From NCBI GenBank assembly GCA_018814355.1, contig JAHIZT010000053.1, positions 798 through 64,797 of the forward strand: DNA of 64,000 nucleotides, in the 5' to 3' direction. Origin of the DNA: Thermoplasmatota archaeon. Lineage in GTDB: Archaea; Thermoplasmatota; Thermoplasmata; UBA10834. The translations under genes and the position numbers were made by a program. The notes beneath the pieces were generated by a model. It was not told the origin of the DNA. It did not search any database and was given only the letters and a program-made list of their open reading frames with translations. Shown here piece after piece: positions 51,236-60,813 of this stretch. Every line of letters begins with the position of its first letter. The stretch's first letter is position 1.

Positions 51236-53854
51236 TCATCCCTCGTCATTCCCGGAGTCATCATCTGACCCGTCTGACTCCTCGTCCTTCCCGTCGCCCT
51301 CGTCTTCGTCCCCGTTCTCGTCGACTATGTCTCCGTTCGGAGTGGGACAGCTCGTGAGCGTCCTGCTCGCGACCGCGCGCTCCTCCTCGCTGAGGCCTAT
51401 CAGGCGCGCGACCGCGCTGATCTTGTCCTTCTCTTTGAGCTTCATGACCCTCACGCCCATCGTGGCCCTCCCCTGCAGGCTGATGCCCTGCACTGGCATC
51501 CTGATGACCATGCCGTGGACGCTCGTTACAATCAGCTCGTTGTCATCCTCGACGGTCTTGACCGTGATGACGTCCCCGTTCCTGCCGCCGGTCTTGATCG
51601 TGATGACGCCCTTGCCACCCCTGTGGATCTTTCTGTAGTCCTCGACGAGCGACCGCTTTCCGTAGCCGTTCTCGGTGACGGTGAGAAGATGGTCCTTGGG
51701 ATCCACCACGGCCATGCTGACGACCTCGTCGCCCTTCCTGAGCCTTATCCCTCTGACGCCGTATGTTGCCCTGCCGGTCGGGCGCACATCCGTCTCCGCG
51801 AACCTCGCGGCCAGGCCCTTCCTCGTCGCCAGGATGACCTCCTTGGAGCCGTCGGTGATGGTCGTGTCGACGACCTCGTCGCCATCGTCGAGCTTGATCG
51901 CGATTATGCCGCTCTGCCTGACATGGGAGTATGCCGAGAGCCGCGTCTTCTTGATGGTTCCGTTCTTCGTCGCGAACACGAGGTAGTGGTCGTCCGTGAA
52001 CAGCTTGACGGGTATGGTGTTGACGACCTTCTCGCCGTCCTCGAGGTGCTCGAGCAGGTTCACGACCGGTTTGCCCTTGGCGTGTCTCCCGCCGACGGGT
52101 ATCTTGTAGGCCTTGAGCCAGTAGACCCTGCCGTGGTTCGTGATGTACATTACATAGTCGTGGGAACTTGTTATGAACAGGTCGACGACATAGTCCTCCT
52201 CCTTCGTCTCCATGCCCATCAGGCCTACGCCTCCGCGCTTCTGCGACTCGTATGTTTCCAGCGGCAGGCGTTTGATGTATCCAGTCTGGCTGATCGTGAC
52301 CACGACATCCTCGACTGGTATGAGGTCCTCGATGTCCAGGTCCAAGGCGTTCGCCTCGATGGTCGTCCGCCTCTCGTCCCCGAACTCCTCCTTGACTTCG
52401 GCCAACTCCGACTTGATGATCCCTAGGATCTTCTTCTCATCCTTCAAGATAGATTTGTACTCGTCTATGAGCTTCTTCGTCGCATTGGCCTCGTCCCGGA
52501 CAGCCTGCATCTCCATGCCCGTGAGCCTCTGGAGCTGCATCTCGAGTATGGCCTTGGTCTGTTCCTCGGACAGGAGGTACTTGGCAATGAGCGCGTTCCT
52601 GGCCTCCTCCCTCGTCTTCGCCTTGCGAATGATCCTGATGACCTCGTCCAGATGGTCCAGTGCTATCATGAGGCCGGCCAGGATGTGCGCTCTCTTCTCC
52701 GCCTCTCTGAGCATGTGCTCCGTCCGCCTCTTAACCACATCGAATCTGTGCTCGATGTAGTACTCGAGCATCTCTTTGAGCGAGAGCGTCTTGGGCTGGT
52801 TGTTCACCAGCGCGATGTTGATGATTCCGAAGGTCGTCTGGAGCTGGGAGTGAGCGAAGAGCTGGTTGAGCACTACCTCCTCGATCGCATCCCTCTTCAG
52901 CTCGATCACGACTCTGAGGCCTTCCTTGTCCGACTCGTCCCTCAGATCCGATATCCCCTCGATGGCCTTCGACTTGACCATCTCGGCGATCGCCTCGAGC
53001 AGCGAGGACTTGTTGACCATGTACGGTATCTCCGTAACGATCACAGTGGCCCTGCCGGTGTCCTCATCGTGCTCGACGGTGTACCTGGCCCTTACCCGAA
53101 TCCTGCCCTTTCCGGAGGCGTACGCCTCGTAGATGCCTTGGGCGCCGTAGATGATGCCTCCCGTCGGGAAGTCCGGGCCCTTGACGACCTCCATCAGGTC
53201 CTTGAGCTCGGTGTCCTCGCCCTTGATCTGCCGGTCTATCATGAGCGCGACAGCGTCCACGATCTCGTTCAGGTTGTGGGGCGGGATGTTCGTTGCCATG
53301 CCGACGGCGATCCCCTGGGAGCCGTTCACGAGTAGGTTCGGGAACTTCGCAGGAAGCACCAGAGGCTCCTTCAGAGTCCCGTCGAAGTTGGGAGCGAAGT
53401 CCACCGTCTCCTCGTCGACGTCCCTGAGCATCTCAGCAGCGATCGCCGAGAGCCTGCATTCCGTGTACCTCATCGCAGCTGCAGAGTCGCCGTCCACGCT
53501 GCCGAAGTTGCCCTGTCCGTCTATGAGCGGGTATCGCATCGAGAAGACCTGGGCCATGCGCACCAGGGTGTCGTAGATCGCGAGGTCGCCATGCGGATGG
53601 AACTTGCCCAGGACCTCTCCTACGACCCTTGCGGCCTTCTTGTGGCCCTTGTTGTGCGCGAGGCCCATCTCGTTCATGGCGAACAGAATGCGCCTGTGGA
53701 CAGGTTTCAGGCCGTCGCTGACATCGGGCAGAGCTCGACCAATGATGACGCTCATGGCGTAGTCGATGTACGACTTCTTCATCTCGGTCTCGATCGGCCG
53801 TATGATAAGTCTGGCGGCTATTGGTTGCTGTTCTCCCTCGGGTGCCTCTTCCAT
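51236..53854 (-). CDS. gyrA: DNA gyrase subunit A with acidic C-terminal tail
   Basis: GyrA N-terminal domain ([29 protein letters not shown]), active-site Tyr region, beta-pinwheel repeats, DE-rich tail. Confidence 0.9.
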
Positions 53855-53864
53855 CCACTACCAC

Positions 53865-55847
<1,983 letters not shown>

Positions 55848-56161
55848 TCAATTTCATCAACAGATTGCGTGTATATAAATGCTTTGAGAATACCGTCTGG
55901 CTGCATGCAGGAACCCCCCTTCGTTTCTACTGCAATTTTCCGTCGATTTCACTCCATGATTTCCATGAGAAATGTCGGCACTTGACGACAAGACGACTCT
56001 GGCCTGTTTGGCGACGGAGGGAAGGCATTGGAGACTGGTGAGACAAGTTCGTCACGGTGGTTGAAATAAGACGCGAACTCAGTCAGACTGGACCGACACA
56101 AATCATCACCGGTCAATGAAAGGATTTATACCGATGAGGCAATCTGTAGCTCCGAACCTGG

Positions 56162-57427
56162 ATGAAAGCTGGTCGAAAGAGCCCTTTTCCACAGGAAATG
56201 AAGGGGGTTTCGAAGAAAGAAGGAATCGAGCCAGACAAGTTGAAGGCCCTTGTCCGAGCAGGAAAGGTCGTAATCCCTTCGAACCCCGCTCATAAGAAGC
56301 TAGTCCCTTGCGCAATAGGCGAAGGTCTCAGGGTGAAGATCAACGCAAACATCGGCACCTCAAGGGACTACATAGATGTCGACGAGGAGCTCAGGAAGGT
56401 AAGGGTGGCCGTCAAATACGGTGCGGACGCGATCATGGACCTGAGCACAGGAGGCAAAATACGCCAGATAAGGAGAAAGATCATCGCGGCATCCACAGTG
56501 CCCGTTGGCACCGTACCTATCTACGAGGCGGTGTGCAAGACCTCAGGGAAGGGTGGCCCTGTCAACATGACTAGCGACGACCTCTTCAAGACGATAGAGG
56601 AGCACGCCAAGGATGGTGTGGACTTCATGACCGTCCACTGTGGAGTCACGAAGCTAACGGCCGGGTCGCTAGTGAAGCACAAACGAGTCACGGGGGTCGT
56701 GTCAAGAGGTGGAGCGCTACTAGTGGCCTGGATGCACCAGAACGGGAAGGAGAACCCGCTCTTCGAGGATTATGATTACCTGCTCGAGTTGGCCAAGGAG
56801 CACGAGTTCGCCCTGAGCCTCGGCGACGGCCTGAGGCCTGGGAGCATTGCCGATGCGACAGATGTCCCGCAACTCCACGAGCTCATCGTTCTTGGAAAAC
56901 TCGTGGAGCGGGCGAGAGAGGCAGGCGTCCAAGCGATGGTCGAGGGGCCAGGACATGTCCCTCTCAACCAGATCGAAGCGAATGTGAGGATCGAGAAGGC
57001 CGTGTGCAAGGGAGCACCGTTCTATGTTCTCGGACCTCTGGTGTGCGATGTCGGCGCAGGCTACGATCATATCACTGGAGCGATAGGAGGAGCGTTGGCA
57101 GCGTACTTCGGAGCCGACTTCCTGTGCTATGTCACGCCGTCTGAACACCTGTCTCTGCCAACCGTGGAAGATGTAAAGGAGGGTGTGATCGCAAGCAGGA
57201 TCGCGGCCCATGCGGCCGACCTGGCCAGAGGTCGAGACACTTCTTGGGATAGGGAGATGTCTGCTGCGAGGAAAGCCTTCGACTGGGAGAGGATGTTCGA
57301 ACTGTCTCTCGACCCTGAGAAGACCAAGGAACTCTGGATGAGGCGGAGATCGCACAGCCCGAAGGTTTGCTCCATGTGCGGAGACCTGTGCGCGATGAAG
57401 ATGGTCGACAAGCTGCTCGGCGAATGA
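56162..57427 (+). CDS. thiC: Phosphomethylpyrimidine synthase
   Basis: ThiC signature throughout (ANIGTSRDY..., CGDLCAMKM C-terminal Cys motif). Possible downstream start MKGVSKK at ~56198. Confidence 0.85.
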   Translation: MKAGRKSPFPQEMKGVSKKEGIEPDKLKALVRAGKVVIPSNPAHKKLVPCAIGEGLRVKINANIGTSRDYIDVDEELRKVRVAVKYGADAIMDLSTGGKIRQIRRKIIAASTVPVGTVPIYEAVCKTSGKGGPVNMTSDDLFKTIEEHAKDGVDFMTVHCGVTKLTAGSLVKHKRVTGVVSRGGALLVAWMHQNGKENPLFEDYDYLLELAKEHEFALSLGDGLRPGSIADATDVPQLHELIVLGKLVERAREAGVQAMVEGPGHVPLNQIEANVRIEKAVCKGAPFYVLGPLVCDVGAGYDHITGAIGGALAAYFGADFLCYVTPSEHLSLPTVEDVKEGVIASRIAAHAADLARGRDTSWDREMSAARKAFDWERMFELSLDPEKTKELWMRRRSHSPKVCSMCGDLCAMKMVDKLLGE

Positions 57428-57433
57428 GACTCG

Positions 57434-58342
57434 TCAGAAGAAGAGTCCCAGCGGCATTCGCATGACCATGCCGACCACCAGATAGATGATTCCAGCAGCA
57501 ATGGCTGCCAGAATGCAGGACATCGCGGCCTCGCCTGTCGATATGTCGTTCGCAACGCTGACTGCCTTGCTTGTGACCCAGAGCAGCCAGATCAGTCCGA
57601 TCAATGCTACCACGAGGAGCACCGCTCCTGCTGCGATTGCCTGGTTGAGCTCGTCACTCGTCCAATCCTGGACCCTGGTCAAGTCGAGACCCCTGAAGCC
57701 AGTCGTGAACAGCAAGAGGAGCACCATGCTGAGGAGGACATAGCCTGGATAGGCGTACCCAGTGAGCATCAGGGTGGCGCTACGCTCTCCCCTGCCACCG
57801 AAGACATCCTTCGCCACGAGCGCGGTTGTGACTCCGAAGATCAGGAATGCCAGCAATGACACCATCCAGCTGACGAATCCCTGGAACGCCAGCTCGAACG
57901 CGTCCCCCCTGCTGTAACCGAGCACCTGTTCCATATCTGCAGTCACCAGCAGGCTGATGACTGAGGAGATGATTGAGAACAGGACGACTATGACGAGCGC
58001 CCTCTGCAGGTTGGTAGATCGATATAAAGAGGAGAAGGCCTTTGTCGGAGAGAAGCTGATGCGCAATAGGTCCGAGAAATCCAACCTTGGCGCGTGCTTC
58101 GGCTGCATGTAGAGTCCTGGGTAGTGGCTCATATGAACATGCGGATGTATCGGGGATTGGAAGTCCGCCGGGGGGATCTGAGGAACAAAACGCTCCGGCA
58201 GCTGCTGCTTGATGCTCGTCCCGCATCTCGGGCAGATGGTCACGCCTGTGCCATCCCCCAACGCCTGCAAATATCCCGAAGACTGAAGGCCGCATGACGG
58301 ACACGACATACTGTGGACGTACACCACAGACTCGGGCATCAT
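57434..58342 (-). CDS. Yip1-like multi-pass membrane protein with N-terminal zinc ribbon
   Basis: CPSCG...CPRCG ribbon, then a 5-TM Yip1-domain-like region. Confidence 0.45.
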   Translation of the reverse strand: MMPESVVYVHSMSCPSCGLQSSGYLQALGDGTGVTICPRCGTSIKQQLPERFVPQIPPADFQSPIHPHVHMSHYPGLYMQPKHAPRLDFSDLLRISFSPTKAFSSLYRSTNLQRALVIVVLFSIISSVISLLVTADMEQVLGYSRGDAFELAFQGFVSWMVSLLAFLIFGVTTALVAKDVFGGRGERSATLMLTGYAYPGYVLLSMVLLLLFTTGFRGLDLTRVQDWTSDELNQAIAAGAVLLVVALIGLIWLLWVTSKAVSVANDISTGEAAMSCILAAIAAGIIYLVVGMVMRMPLGLFF

Positions 58343-58406
58343 AAGTAAGACGATAGCGTCCGAGGAATATTAGCATTGCCCAATCAGAGCCAGCTGATGG
58401 AGAAGA

Positions 58407-58510
58407 TGGAGCCACTGGAGGGTATCGAACCCCCGGCCTGCGGTTTACGAAACCGCCGCTCTTTAGCGGCAATTGCTGAACAGCAAATGCAACCGCTGAG
58501 CTACAGTGGC
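58407..58510 (-). tRNA. tRNA-Thr (anticodon CGT)-like gene with ~27-nt insertion in the D-loop region and genomically encoded CCA
   Basis: Reverse-complement fold: acceptor GCCACTG/CAGTGGC with T-CCA tail, D stem GCTC...GAGC separated by 36 nt, anticodon arm GCGGT-TTCGTAA-ACCGC, T arm GGGGG-TTCGATA-CCCTC. Confidence 0.6.
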
Positions 58511-58632
58511 AACAGGGATTGTTGGGAAGATTGTCTTGCTAGTTAAGGCTTTTGACCTCTCCCACATCGGGGTCCAGGCAGTCCAGATTGACGCCTTAAA
58601 GACGAGAGGCTTTTAAGGGTTCGACGGCATTC

Positions 58633-60813
58633 ATGCTGGGGACCCGCCAAATGGTCACCGACCTGCGCATACCCGAAGGAATCGTCGTCCGGACCGCCAA
58701 GGGCGGGTCGGACTCCCTCAAGGGGATTCTCGAGGACCTGAAACAGTACAGTTTCACGGGATATGTCAGGGTGACCCTTCAGAAAGAAATCATGAGCTCA
58801 ATCGGGTACCTGGTGGTCGAGCAGGGCGCGCCGGTGATGGCCGTCTACGAGTTCGAGAAATCGAAACCGAGGGAGCTCAAGAGGATCTACACGGGAGAGA
58901 AGTCGCTAAGGTTCATCCTGGAGGACTCGCAGGATAGGGGTTCCAACATCGAGCTACACAGCAGGGTACCGATAGAGGAGTTCGAGCGGAGGTTCCCTGA
59001 TGCCAGGATCGACGAGGCGCCAGTGCAGGCAAAGGCACCCATCTTGGAAGCCGGGCAGAAGATTGAGGAGGAGGCCGAGGAGGAAGAGACTGCCGATTCT
59101 CAGCGAGGAATAGTCGAGCTCTGGCGCAGGAAGGGATTCAAGGTGGACACTCTCGAGGAGGCGCTCAGGAAAGGCCCTGGGGCGCTCGCGAAGGAGCTCA
59201 CTCAGTTCGAACAGGACGCGCAGAGGCTGAAGCAGTTCGAGATCATGATGAACAACTTCCCAATCCTTGGTCACGAGCAAGAGATAGAGGAGATCAGGTC
59301 GAAGCTAGACGACAGGGCCAAGATCGCGGAGATCGAATCCGACATTGAATTCCTTCAAGAGAAGATCAAGCGCAAGATCCAAAAAAGGAAGACCGTTGAG
59401 GAATCGATCAAGCAGGAGATGGAGAAGAAGAAACGAGAGGAGAAGTCCGCGGACGTATACGATCTGATACTGAAGTACCAGACAGCTCCTGAGGAGGATG
59501 TCGCGAAGAAGTGCCCCAGGTGCGGAGGACCGGTGGATGAAGAGGGGAGATGCCCCAAGTGCAGCGCTGAGGGGGCAGCCGCCGCGGCTCCTGCTTTCGC
59601 GAAGCCCTTGAACACGGAGATGACCTTTGACAACTTCGTCGTGGGTCCTGGGTCGAAGTTCCCAGTGGCCGCGGCCAGTTCAGTGGCCAGCTCCCCGAGC
59701 AAGACCTACAATCCTCTGCTCGTCTTCGGCGGATCCGGCCTTGGAAAGACGCACCTCATTTTCGCCATAGGTAATCACATGAGGAGCAAATCGAAGAGCA
59801 TCAAGATCATGTATGTTCCTGCGGACAAGCTCGTCGAGGCGATCAACACCTCACAGGAGGAGGCGCTAAGAAAGAGGATGAAAGAAGACATGGAGAGCGT
59901 GGACCTGCTCCTCGTCGATGACATGCAGTTCCTCGCAACCAGCGAACGAGCACAGATAGATATCACCCATGTCATAGACCATCTGATCGATTCCAAGAAA
60001 CAGGTCGTTCTCGCGAGCGACCGGCTGCCTTCCCAGATTCCCGGTTTCAGCGACAGGCTGAGCTCCCGCATAATGCTGGGACTCACGACGGACCTGCAGC
60101 CTCCGGACCTGGATACAAGGGTCAAGATCCTGAAGCTCAAGGCACGGGAGAAGAATCTGAAGCTGAGCGACGATATCGTCACTTACATTGCTGAGCGCGT
60201 CACGACCAATGTCAGAGAGCTGGAGAGCACGCTCACGAAGATCGCGGCTTTCTCCACAATAATGAAACTGGACGTGGATCTCAACCTCGTCTCTGACATA
60301 CTCAAGCCGCTGGCACCTGTTCAGGAGACAAGGAAGGAGATCATGAAGGAGGTCAAAGCGAACCCCGGACACTGCTACCTGGTCGAGGAGGAGCGGCCGA
60401 TGTACAGCAACGTGCTCCTCAGCAGGAAGATGGACGAAGGTTATGCTGGCATGGTCATCACGCGCATGAACCCAAAGCGTATAAGGGACGAGTTCAAGGT
60501 GCCTCCCGAGATTCTCTGGCTCACGGACAAGGAGAGTTCTCAAGAGAAGACTGTCGCGCCCTCTCTGGAGATGCTGATCCATGTCATACAGGAGTTCATG
60601 GCGCAGGGGGAGAAGGGAATGATCGTCCTTGACGGAATCCAGTACCTCGTGAGCACGACCAACTTCGAGGCTGTGCTAAGGTTCGTCAGAAGCCTGATAG
60701 ACGAGATCTCCGAGTCGAGCGCCATTCTCGCCATATCCATGAGTCCCGAGACCATGAAGCCCCAGGAAGTCTCGATTCTGGAAAGAGAGATGGAAGTCCT
60801 GAACCTGACCTGA
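58633..60813 (+). CDS. Chimeric protein: N-terminal domain of unknown function, acidic coiled-coil segment, zinc ribbon, bacterial DnaA-type AAA+ domain, C-terminal RecA-like (DUF835-type) domain
   Basis: DnaA domain-III hallmarks in order: TFDNFVVGP, YNPLLVFGGSGLGKTHL, LLLVDDMQFL, VVLASDRLP, RLSSRIMLGL, LQPPDLDTRVKIL, NVRELE. Preceded by CPRCGG...CPKC. No DnaA domain IV. Confidence 0.65.
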   Translation: MLGTRQMVTDLRIPEGIVVRTAKGGSDSLKGILEDLKQYSFTGYVRVTLQKEIMSSIGYLVVEQGAPVMAVYEFEKSKPRELKRIYTGEKSLRFILEDSQDRGSNIELHSRVPIEEFERRFPDARIDEAPVQAKAPILEAGQKIEEEAEEEETADSQRGIVELWRRKGFKVDTLEEALRKGPGALAKELTQFEQDAQRLKQFEIMMNNFPILGHEQEIEEIRSKLDDRAKIAEIESDIEFLQEKIKRKIQKRKTVEESIKQEMEKKKREEKSADVYDLILKYQTAPEEDVAKKCPRCGGPVDEEGRCPKCSAEGAAAAAPAFAKPLNTEMTFDNFVVGPGSKFPVAAASSVASSPSKTYNPLLVFGGSGLGKTHLIFAIGNHMRSKSKSIKIMYVPADKLVEAINTSQEEALRKRMKEDMESVDLLLVDDMQFLATSERAQIDITHVIDHLIDSKKQVVLASDRLPSQIPGFSDRLSSRIMLGLTTDLQPPDLDTRVKILKLKAREKNLKLSDDIVTYIAERVTTNVRELESTLTKIAAFSTIMKLDVDLNLVSDILKPLAPVQETRKEIMKEVKANPGHCYLVEEERPMYSNVLLSRKMDEGYAGMVITRMNPKRIRDEFKVPPEILWLTDKESSQEKTVAPSLEMLIHVIQEFMAQGEKGMIVLDGIQYLVSTTNFEAVLRFVRSLIDEISESSAILAISMSPETMKPQEVSILEREMEVLNLT

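What the first reader, a model, noticed from the sequence alone, without database searches (positions are those of the whole stretch)
58407..58510. tRNA-Thr(CGT)-like gene with a ~27-nt insertion between the D-stem halves and a genomically encoded CCA
The acceptor stem, anticodon arm, T arm (GGTTCGATA) and 3' T-CCA are canonical. However, 36 nt separate the D-stem strands GCTC and GAGC, where 7-11 are expected. The insert contains a self-complementary TTGCTG-TT-CAGCAA hairpin. This is best explained by a non-canonical-position intron removed by the splicing endonuclease at a bulge-helix-bulge motif. That is rare outside Crenarchaeota and a few euryarchaea. The encoded CCA is also uncommon among the tRNAs in this window, since the other three lack it.
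Basis: seen in the sequence. Interest (0 to 1): 0.5.

Follow-up and report, generated by a model that had tools for sequence, protein, structure and literature searches.

The report
Archaeal tRNA-Thr with D-loop intron
This is a real archaeal threonine tRNA gene interrupted in its D-loop by a 29-base intron of the known protein-spliced (bulge-helix-bulge) kind, and although the position is unusual it is a fixed, inherited feature of this tRNA across a whole group of Thermoplasmata archaea.

Summary
The minus strand of 58407-58510 holds a tRNA-Thr(CGT) gene (Rfam 56.5 bits) with 36 nt between the D-stem strands and an encoded CCA.

The extra bases form a textbook strict hBHBh' splicing motif:
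- D-stem GCUC/GAGC
- 3' bulge AAA
- 4-bp helix AGCG/CGCU
- 5' bulge GUU
- helix GCA/UGC capped by a hairpin

Cutting after the second base of each bulge removes 29 nt (58463-58491, between tRNA positions 20 and 21). What remains is a 75-nt sequence that ARAGORN calls tRNA-Thr(cgt).

Eighty species-level Thermoplasmata/Methanomassiliicoccales genomes and 120 metagenome contigs carry the orthologous gene in conserved synteny. All have an insert of 16-32 nt at the same site. The 3-4-3 geometry is kept, the helices covary, and the bulge bases kept in the mature tRNA are near-invariant. None of the 120 metagenome contigs was intron-less.

Two details need correcting: the intron is 29 nt rather than about 27, and the mature tRNA is 75 nt.

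D-loop BHB introns are already known (A. pernix tRNA-Thr, M. kandleri tRNA-Glu). tRNAscan-SE 2.0 already counts non-canonical introns in Methanomassiliicoccales. This is therefore a new member of a known kind, of modest interest. Splicing itself and the lineage's endonuclease type were not tested.

The parts
58539..58553 (-). Archaeal promoter-like element AAAAGCCTTAACTAG (purine-rich BRE-like stretch plus TATA-like CTTAACTA), 29-43 nt upstream of the mature 5' end
   Evidence: Read from the sequence. The same AAAAG(G/C)CTTAACTAG, or AAATTTTAAAT in Methanomassiliicoccales, sits at the same distance in the orthologous loci. Its function as a promoter is inferred.
58492..58510 (-). 5' exon: acceptor 5' strand GCCACUG, U8 A9, D-stem 5' strand GCUC, D-loop A14 G15 C16 G18 G19 U20
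   Evidence: Rfam alignment; BHB parse
58463..58491 (-). 29-nt intron UGCAUUUGCUGUUCAGCAAUUGCCGCUAA, inserted between tRNA positions 20 and 21
   Evidence: Deleting it gives a 75-nt sequence that ARAGORN calls tRNA-Thr(cgt). Orthologues carry 16-32 nt at the same site.
58458..58501 (-). hBHBh' splicing motif. Elements: D-stem GCUC/GAGC (h); central 4-bp helix AGCG (58494-58497) with CGCU (58465-58468); 5' bulge GUU (58491-58493); 3' bulge AAA (58462-58464); outer helix GCA/UGC plus hairpin UUGCU-GUUC-AGCAA (h').
   Evidence: Read from the sequence. On the isolated arm the BHB conformer is -16.4 against the MFE of -17.0 kcal/mol. Covariation is shown.
58407..58462 (-). 3' exon: A21, D-stem 3' strand GAGC, anticodon arm (anticodon CGU at 58447-58449), variable loop AGGCC, T arm, acceptor 3' strand, discriminator U, encoded CCA (58407-58409)
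   Evidence: CCA is encoded in 80 of 81 genome orthologues and 114 of 120 metagenome orthologues.

Best explanation
This is the single-copy-looking tRNA-Thr(CGU) gene of an uncultured Thermoplasmata archaeon. The window is at least 99.9% identical to NCBI MAG contigs JBDRHC010000054.1 and JAHJFY010000143.1. The gene is interrupted between D-loop positions 20 and 21 by a 29-nt protein-spliced archaeal intron.

Shown:
- In the precursor, D-loop bases A14-G15-C16-G18 pair with the 3' end of the intron (CGCU).
- This makes the 4-bp central helix of a strict hBHBh' motif whose outer helices are the D-stem and an intron hairpin.

Inferred:
- The splicing endonuclease EndA cuts after the second base of each 3-nt bulge (GU|U and AA|A).
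- RtcB ligase joins the exons to give the D-loop AGCGGUA and probably circularises the intron.
- Only after splicing can the D-loop make its tertiary contacts with the T-loop.
- The intron appears to be vertically inherited. It was never seen lost in this tRNA family, and it evolves freely in hairpin length and sequence under the single constraint of keeping the BHB.
For: - Rfam tRNA match at 56.5 bits, with the insert in the D-loop.
- A strict 3-4-3 motif is read directly from the sequence. The BHB conformer is within 0.6 kcal/mol of the MFE on the isolated arm.
- Removing 58463-58491 yields an ARAGORN tRNA-Thr(cgt) of 75 nt.
- 80 species-representative Thermoplasmata/Methanomassiliicoccales genomes carry the orthologue with an insert at the same site. 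The central helix has 4/4 pairs in 60 of these plus the window, and 3/4 pairs in 19.
- All three outer-helix pairs and one central-helix pair show double compensatory changes: 96.1% of cells paired against 87.7% shuffled, covariation 0.292 against 0.119, 0/500 shuffles as high.
- The exon-retained bulge bases are invariant in the genome set while the intron bulge bases vary.
- The GyrB-ThiC-(Yip1)-tRNA-DnaA-like-Zn-ribbon synteny is conserved, with ThiC and the DnaA-like gene each found in 75 loci and GyrB identity down to about 64%.
- A promoter-like element is conserved.
- A metagenome scan that would have caught intron-less alleles found 120 contigs, all with 16-30-nt introns, 89 of them distinct.
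- Literature: strict BHB motifs are cut by all archaeal EndA types (PMC3239211, PMC4033280). A Thermoplasmatales (Ferroplasma) homodimeric EndA cuts minimal BHB substrates (PMC8707768). A D-loop BHB intron in A. pernix tRNA-Thr(UGU) is spliced in vivo and in vitro (PMC3241643).
Against: - No expression or splicing data exist for this organism.
- EndA and RtcB were not found in the window or in any fetched locus, and the lineage's EndA architecture was not determined.
- The alpha'2 EndA of Archaeoglobus 'hardly cleaved' the A. pernix D-loop BHB intron in vitro (PMC3241643). If Thermoplasmata have an ordinary alpha'2 enzyme, efficiency at this site is an open point.
- The whole-molecule MFE pairs G19 and U20 with the intron instead of leaving the 5' bulge open.
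- 19 of 80 genome orthologues and 41 of 120 metagenome orthologues have G opposite A14, so their central helix is only 3 standard pairs.
Confidence: 0.9

Rival explanations
1. The intron is spliced as described, and it is also kept by selection for a job of its own. Possible jobs: it holds A14-G18 in a helix so that D-loop modification or tRNA folding happens only after splicing; it makes the gene unusable as an integration site for mobile elements; or it yields a functional circular intron RNA.
For: No intron-less allele was seen among 120 metagenome contigs, although precise loss is possible in principle. The intron persists across genomes whose GyrB is only about 64% identical. The central helix sequesters the bases that build the tRNA elbow, which is read directly from the sequence.
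Against: Nothing in the intron is conserved beyond what the BHB needs. Length ranges from 16 to 32 nt and the hairpin sequence is free. That fits a neutral passenger that can only be lost by an exact deletion. No guide-RNA boxes are present. No experiment bears on the question.
Confidence: 0.2
2. The extra 29 nt are not removed. The mature RNA is a non-canonical tRNA with an enlarged, helical D-arm.
For: The insert does fold into a stable extension of the D-arm. tRNAs with unusual arms exist in nature (PMC7609411, title only, not read).
Against: - A retained arm gives no reason for an exact 3-nt/4-bp/3-nt geometry to be kept while hairpin length varies two-fold.
- G18 and G19, which must contact the T-loop, would stay sequestered or displaced.
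- The pattern of invariant exon-side bulge bases and variable intron-side bulge bases marks splice sites.
- Removal gives a perfectly ordinary tRNA.
Confidence: 0.03
3. It is a decaying or disabled tRNA pseudogene, for example the scar of a mobile-element insertion.
For: ARAGORN does not call it. With its intron option, ARAGORN miscalls it as tRNA-Gly.
Against: All stems are intact. The promoter-like element and gene neighbourhood are conserved in about 75 genomes. Helices covary. No intron-less copy appeared in 120 contigs. The flanks show no mobile-element genes.
Confidence: 0.02

Closest known systems
Aeropyrum pernix pre-tRNA-Thr2(UGU) D-loop BHB intron (Hirata et al. 2011, PMC3241643)
   Same: The isotype family (Thr) is the same, the intron sits in the D-loop, and the motif is canonical BHB rather than relaxed. 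It is shown to be transcribed and matured in vivo and cut by EndA in vitro without cofactors.
   Different: The host is a crenarchaeon with an (alpha-beta)2 EndA carrying the Crenarchaea-specific loop. The anticodon is UGU, not CGU. The exact position was not given in the text I could read. In that study the euryarchaeal alpha'2 AFU enzyme hardly cut it.
Methanopyrus kandleri pre-tRNA-Glu(UUC) intron at 20b/21 (Kaneta et al. 2018, PMC5829648)
   Same: The host is a euryarchaeon and the insertion point is equivalent, immediately before A21 in the D-loop.
   Different: The motif is relaxed HBh', not strict. The tRNA also carries a 37/38 intron. The host EndA is an (alpha-beta)2 heterotetramer, and cleavage in vitro is inefficient.
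Canonical archaeal 37/38 BHB introns
   Same: The 3-4-3 hBHBh' geometry is identical, so the enzymes (EndA, RtcB) and the cut sites within the bulges are presumably the same.
   Different: The position differs. There the central helix is built from anticodon-loop bases; here it is built from D-loop bases A14-G18.
Non-canonical introns counted in Methanomassiliicoccales by tRNAscan-SE 2.0 (Chan et al. 2021, PMC8450103, Suppl. Table S7)
   Same: Three Methanomassiliicoccales genomes were scored with 6 non-canonical introns in 138 tRNA genes. The orthologue of this gene is very likely among them.
   Different: The table gives counts only, with no isotype, position, conservation or discussion. The window's organism is an uncultured relative that was not in that survey.

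Membership tests
Archaeal protein-spliced tRNA intron with strict hBHBh' motif | The host sequence is a tRNA gene that becomes a canonical cloverleaf once the intron is removed | tested here: met
   Rfam RF00005 at 56.5 bits with the insert in the D-loop. The spliced 75-mer is called tRNA-Thr(cgt) by ARAGORN, and RNAfold gives a cloverleaf.
Archaeal protein-spliced tRNA intron with strict hBHBh' motif | Two 3-nt bulges on opposite strands separated by a 4-bp helix | tested here: met
   GUU / AGCG:CGCU / AAA, read from the sequence. The same layout is found in all 80 genome orthologues and all 120 metagenome orthologues, with 4/4 or 3/4 standard pairs apart from one at 2/4.
Archaeal protein-spliced tRNA intron with strict hBHBh' motif | Flanking helices h and h' of at least 2 bp on either side of the bulges | tested here: met
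   h is the D-stem, 4 bp. h' is GCA/UGC (3 bp) followed, after a U-U mismatch, by a 5-bp hairpin. The outer helix is at least 3 bp in 79 of 80 genome orthologues.
Archaeal protein-spliced tRNA intron with strict hBHBh' motif | The motif is maintained by compensatory changes in related sequences | tested here: met
   In one search, four pairs show changes on both sides, covariation is 0.292 against 0.119 (0/500 shuffles), and shifted registers pair in only 26-37% of cells. L108 carries AGTG/CACT, an exon-intron double change.
Archaeal protein-spliced tRNA intron with strict hBHBh' motif | The host is an archaeon that encodes splicing endonuclease EndA and ligase RtcB | tested here: inconclusive
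   An archaeal (Thermoplasmata) origin is supported by 80 syntenic MAG loci and by NCBI MAG contigs at least 99.9% identical to the window. EndA was not found in the window or loci, and the lineage's EndA was not retrieved. Its presence is assumed because EndA is universal in Archaea.
Archaeal protein-spliced tRNA intron with strict hBHBh' motif | The intron is actually excised, giving a mature spliced tRNA and free intron | not testable with these tools
   No transcriptome data are available here.
Relaxed BHB introns (HBh', hBH, BHL) that need (alpha-beta)2 or epsilon2 EndA | One bulge is missing, or has the wrong size, or is replaced by a loop | tested here: not met
   In the window both bulges are 3 nt and the central helix is 4 Watson-Crick pairs. 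A minority of orthologues (19 of 80; 41 of 120) have A14 opposite G and are slightly relaxed.
Self-splicing group I intron in a tRNA gene | A ribozyme of roughly 200 nt or more, normally in the anticodon loop | tested here: not met
   The insert is 29 nt and lies in the D-loop. There is no Rfam intron hit at E<=1.
Class II tRNA with a long variable arm | The extra nucleotides lie between the anticodon stem and the T stem (positions 44-48) | tested here: not met
   The variable region is the 5-nt AGGCC. The extra bases lie between the D-stem strands.

The most novel reading that the evidence does not exclude
The D-loop intron is an ancient, never-lost fixture of tRNA-Thr(CGU) throughout a euryarchaeal class whose splicing endonuclease is expected to be the alpha'2 homodimer. 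That enzyme type has been reported to barely cut a D-loop BHB intron. If so, one of two things follows. Either Thermoplasmata EndA has an unrecognised tolerance for position (and for the A14-opposite-G variants), which would break the simple rule that non-canonical position needs (alpha-beta)2 or epsilon2 enzymes. Or the intron is retained because it gates D-loop folding or modification, or shields the gene from integrating elements.
Probability: 0.2. Interest if true: 0.5.

Novelty: new member of a known kind. Interest (0 to 1): 0.3.

Why it matters
- **Annotation.** Default bacterial-style tRNA finders miss this gene or miscall it. ARAGORN finds nothing, or calls tRNA-Gly when introns are allowed. 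Genomes of this clade can therefore appear to lack tRNA-Thr(CGU).
- **Biology.** The gene gives a clean natural series of about 125 distinct introns at one site (37 distinct BHB cores in the genome set, 89 distinct introns in the metagenome set). The series shows what an archaeal splicing motif must keep (the 3-4-3 geometry) and what is free (hairpin length and sequence).
- **A testable question.** How does the Thermoplasmata endonuclease handle a D-loop substrate that an Archaeoglobus alpha'2 enzyme cuts poorly?

Tried and rejected
- **ARAGORN.** The default run missed the gene. With -i it reported a spurious tRNA-Gly(gcc) with an 11-nt intron, which I rejected.
- **Whole-precursor MFE.** It does not draw the 5' bulge. 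I checked this and found the BHB conformer only 0.6 kcal/mol above the MFE on the isolated arm, so it does not count against the motif.
- **EndA in the sequences held.** tblastn of the M. jannaschii enzyme against the window and 120 loci found nothing (query verified against PDB 1A79).
- **EndA of the lineage.**
  - A large protein search with the same query reached only Methanococci, DPANN and Archaeoglobus-like proteins.
  - Cluster look-ups gave no organism names.
  - The T. acidophilum sequence (2OHC) could not be extracted from the PDB search output.
  - I ran no further search on this.
- **Source contig.** An exact-protein look-up failed for Yip1, probably because the start codon was called differently. 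It succeeded for ThiC.
- **Literature.** Searches for a description of this intron in Methanomassiliicoccales or Thermoplasmata found no text discussion. Only the count table of tRNAscan-SE 2.0 turned up.
- **Alternatives considered and rejected** (see the membership tests): long variable arm, group I intron, pseudogene, retained D-arm expansion.

Full report
**Observation**

The feature is on the minus strand at exactly the stated coordinates. Rfam's tRNA model matches 58410-58510(-) at 56.5 bits (gathering score 29) and leaves 30 nt unaligned in the D-loop. ARAGORN in default mode does not report it.

Read 5'->3' the gene is GCCACUG-UA-GCUC-[AGCGGU UGCAUUUGCUGUUCAGCAAUUGCCGCUAA A]-GAGC-G-GCGGU-UUCGUAA-ACCGC-AGGCC-GGGGG-UUCGAUA-CCCUC-CAGUGGC-U-CCA.
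- 36 nt between the D-stem strands
- the TTGCTG-TT-CAGCAA palindrome
- the GGTTCGATA T-loop
- anticodon CGT
- encoded CCA

The three other tRNAs in the window (Asn, Met, Phe) do not encode CCA.

**Anatomy**

The extra bases are not a variable arm, because the variable loop is the ordinary 5-nt AGGCC. They form a strict archaeal hBHBh' motif with these elements:
- The D-stem GCUC/GAGC is helix h.
- On the 3' strand it is followed by a 3-nt bulge, AAA.
- Next comes a 4-bp central helix, in which D-loop bases A14 G15 C16 G18 pair with CGCU at the 3' end of the insert.
- On the 5' strand there is a 3-nt bulge, G19 U20 U.
- Helix h' is GCA/UGC, extended past a U-U mismatch by the hairpin UUGCU-GUUC-AGCAA.

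In canonical 37/38 introns the enzyme cuts after the second base of each bulge. That rule rests on my own knowledge of the published motif and was checked only for internal consistency. Applied here it makes the intron 29 nt (window 58463-58491), between positions 20 and 21.

Deleting the intron gives a 75-nt sequence with D-loop AGCGGUA. ARAGORN calls it tRNA-Thr(cgt) and RNAfold draws it as a cloverleaf.

The whole-precursor MFE pairs G19 and U20 with the intron instead of leaving the 5' bulge open. On the isolated arm, however, the BHB conformer is -16.4 against -17.0 kcal/mol, so the two are nearly isoenergetic. Shuffling the 29 nt gives a strict BHB at this junction in 261 of 200,000 trials.

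**Comparative evidence**

*Genome scan.* I scanned one genome per GTDB species for tRNA-Thr genes with 15-45 extra bases between G19 and A21.
- Eighty are Thermoplasmata, Methanomassiliicoccales or 'Methanobacteriota' MAGs that carry the same tRNA (acceptor GCCACUG, anticodon CGU) with an insert at the same site.
- In every one the layout is D-stem, then 4 nt (AGCG in 78; AGUG and AGGG once each), then a 3-nt bulge, a variable hairpin, 4 nt, a 3-nt bulge, and the D-stem again.
- The central helix has 4/4 standard pairs in 60 (plus the window), 3/4 in 19 (G opposite A14) and 2/4 in one.
- Intron length runs from 16 to 32 nt.
- The bulge bases predicted to stay in the tRNA are invariant (G19, Y20, A21). 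The bulge bases predicted to leave with the intron vary (U/A/C; AA, AG, AU, CA, AC). This is the signature of the assigned splice sites.

*Covariation.* On a fixed-length alignment of the motif core, all three outer-helix pairs and one central pair show changes on both sides:
- 96.1% of cells are paired, against 87.7% in shuffles.
- The covariation score is 0.292 against 0.119, and no shuffle in 500 is as high.
- Shifted registers pair in only 26-37% of cells.
- L108 has AGUG/CACU, a double change linking an exon base to an intron base.

The D-stem columns are invariant by construction of the search pattern and carry no weight.

*Context and inheritance.* The gene sits in a conserved chromosomal neighbourhood: GyrB, ThiC, (Yip1), tRNA, a DnaA-like ATPase with DUF835, and a zinc-ribbon protein.
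- ThiC and the DnaA-like protein are each found in 75 of the loci. GyrB identity to the window ranges from about 64% to 90%. The intron is therefore vertically inherited across a deep clade and is not part of a mobile element.
- A BRE/TATA-like element, AAAAG(G/C)CTTAACTAG, lies 29-43 nt upstream in the window and its near relatives. A TTTAAAT-type box lies at the same place in Methanomassiliicoccales. The trailers are pyrimidine-rich.
- The window is at least 99.9% identical to NCBI MAG contigs JBDRHC010000054.1 (GCA_043817215.1) and JAHJFY010000143.1 (GCA_018824625.1). Both carry the identical precursor.

All had 16-30-nt introns, 89 of them distinct, and all kept the 3-4-3 layout (79 with 4/4 pairs, 41 with 3/4). 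CCA was encoded in 114 of 120. No intron-less allele was seen.

**Mechanism**

Shown: the motif, its conservation, and the canonical product after in-silico removal.

Inferred from established knowledge of archaeal tRNA splicing: EndA cuts at the two bulges, leaving 2',3'-cyclic phosphate and 5'-OH ends. RtcB joins the exons and can circularise the intron. RNase P and 3' processing trim the ends.

In the precursor, A14-G18 are locked in the central helix and G19 sits in a bulge. The D-loop/T-loop elbow, and any modification that needs a free D-loop, can only form after splicing. This last point is inference.

Literature support:
- All EndA architectures cut strict BHB motifs (PMC3239211, PMC4033280).
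- A homodimeric EndA from Ferroplasma (Thermoplasmatales) cuts minimal BHB substrates independently of a tRNA body (PMC8707768).
- A BHB intron in the D-loop of A. pernix tRNA-Thr(UGU) is processed in vivo and in vitro (PMC3241643).

The open point is efficiency. In the A. pernix study the alpha'2 enzyme of Archaeoglobus hardly cut the D-loop intron. I could not determine the EndA architecture of this lineage. T. acidophilum EndA (PDB 2OHC, 289 aa) and the Ferroplasma EndA (288 aa) are of a size that fits the two-unit homodimer type.

**Comparison with what is known, and novelty**

D-loop introns at or next to 20/21 are a known kind: A. pernix tRNA-Thr, and M. kandleri tRNA-Glu at 20b/21 (PMC5829648).

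The tRNAscan-SE 2.0 survey already counts 6 non-canonical introns in 3 Methanomassiliicoccales genomes, out of only 25 in 144 euryarchaeal genomes (PMC8450103, Suppl. Table S7). It names no isotype or position. I found no text that describes this intron.

The same 20/21 BHB layout also turned up in tRNA-Thr genes of Aenigmarchaeota, Nanoarchaeia, Micrarchaeia and Methanosarcinales MAGs. My pattern looked only at Thr anticodons.

Verdict: this is a real, functional-looking intron-containing tRNA gene and a new member of a known kind. Interest is modest. Its main value is as an annotation caveat and as a natural test series for EndA substrate rules.

Noticed in passing
window 58633-60813 (+): The gene next to the tRNA encodes a 726-aa protein with a full bacterial-type DnaA AAA+ domain. 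Pfam Bac_DnaA scores 1.8e-48. NCBIfam TIGR00362 DnaA scores 3.6e-85 at 286.7 bits, below the 343.9 cutoff, matching profile positions 74-348 of 437. A Hda-lid region follows, and a C-terminal DUF835 stands where DnaA has its DNA-binding domain IV. The gene is conserved beside this tRNA, about 3 kb from gyrB/gyrA, in 75 Thermoplasmata loci. I found no paper that mentions DnaA together with DUF835. It may be a relic of the bacterial dnaA-gyrB region acquired along with gyrase.
   Followed up: partly
L004 7630-7812 (+); also L023, L035, L038, L059, L109, L115: These CPR/Patescibacteria-labelled contigs hold nested tRNA genes. An outer tRNA-Thr is split inside its D-stem 3' strand (GA|GC) by a 109-113-nt insert. 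The insert is a conserved stalk of about 17 bp that carries a complete second tRNA-Thr with the same anticodon. Deleting the insert restores an ARAGORN-callable outer tRNA-Thr in 5 of 5 cases tested. Bacteria are not expected to have EndA. A 2026 paper on Patescibacteria tRNA introns does not mention this arrangement.
   Followed up: partly
L058, L085, L065, L086, L099, L101, L054 (match coordinates): A second nested arrangement appears in contigs labelled Balneolaceae, Kerfeldbacteria, Terrybacteria and others. A tRNA 5' part ends at ...GAG. Then follow TCCCG(A/C), a stalk, a complete tRNA-Thr, the return stalk and CGGGATAAAC, and then a tRNA 3' part that lacks the anticodon-stem 5' strand. 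L009 and L029 combine a D-stem insert with a small TCC...GGATAAAC hairpin in the anticodon region.
   Followed up: no
L016 3539-3625 (-), L025 1661-1748 (-), L043 500-588 (+), L096 455-543 (+): Contigs binned as Proteobacteria carry tRNA-Thr-like genes (Rfam 59-65 bits, CCA encoded) with 15-17 extra nt in the D-loop by the same intron-length parse. These do not form a strict BHB: the outer helix is 0-1 bp and the central helix has 2-4 pairs. They could be mis-binned, could be unusual bacterial tRNAs, or could belong to mobile elements. This is undetermined.
   Followed up: partly
L041, L069 (Aenigmarchaeota), L053 (Nanoarchaeia), L074 (Micrarchaeia), L050, L117 (Methanosarcinales MAGs): tRNA-Thr genes of distant archaeal lineages have the same layout at 20/21: AGYG, a 3-nt bulge, a hairpin, CGCY, a 3-nt bulge. 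Introns are 15-40 nt. The D-loop site may be a recurrent or ancient insertion point in tRNA-Thr. The search pattern covered Thr anticodons only.
   Followed up: partly
orthologous loci, e.g. L001, L006, L019, L047 and 41 metagenome contigs: About a quarter to a third of the orthologues have CGCG instead of CGCU. This puts G opposite A14, so the central helix has only three standard pairs next to the 3' bulge. It is a natural mildly relaxed variant that the lineage's EndA must tolerate.
   Followed up: no
window 58407-58409 (-) and orthologues: The 3' CCA is encoded in 80 of 81 genome orthologues and 114 of 120 metagenome orthologues of this tRNA. The three other tRNAs in the window lack it. 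The reason for this gene-specific conservation is unknown.
   Followed up: partly
window 53162-60427: This stretch is 99.9% identical to NCBI MAG contigs JBDRHC010000054.1 (GCA_043817215.1, 110 kb) and JAHJFY010000143.1 (GCA_018824625.1). gyrA lies directly beyond gyrB there.
   Followed up: yes
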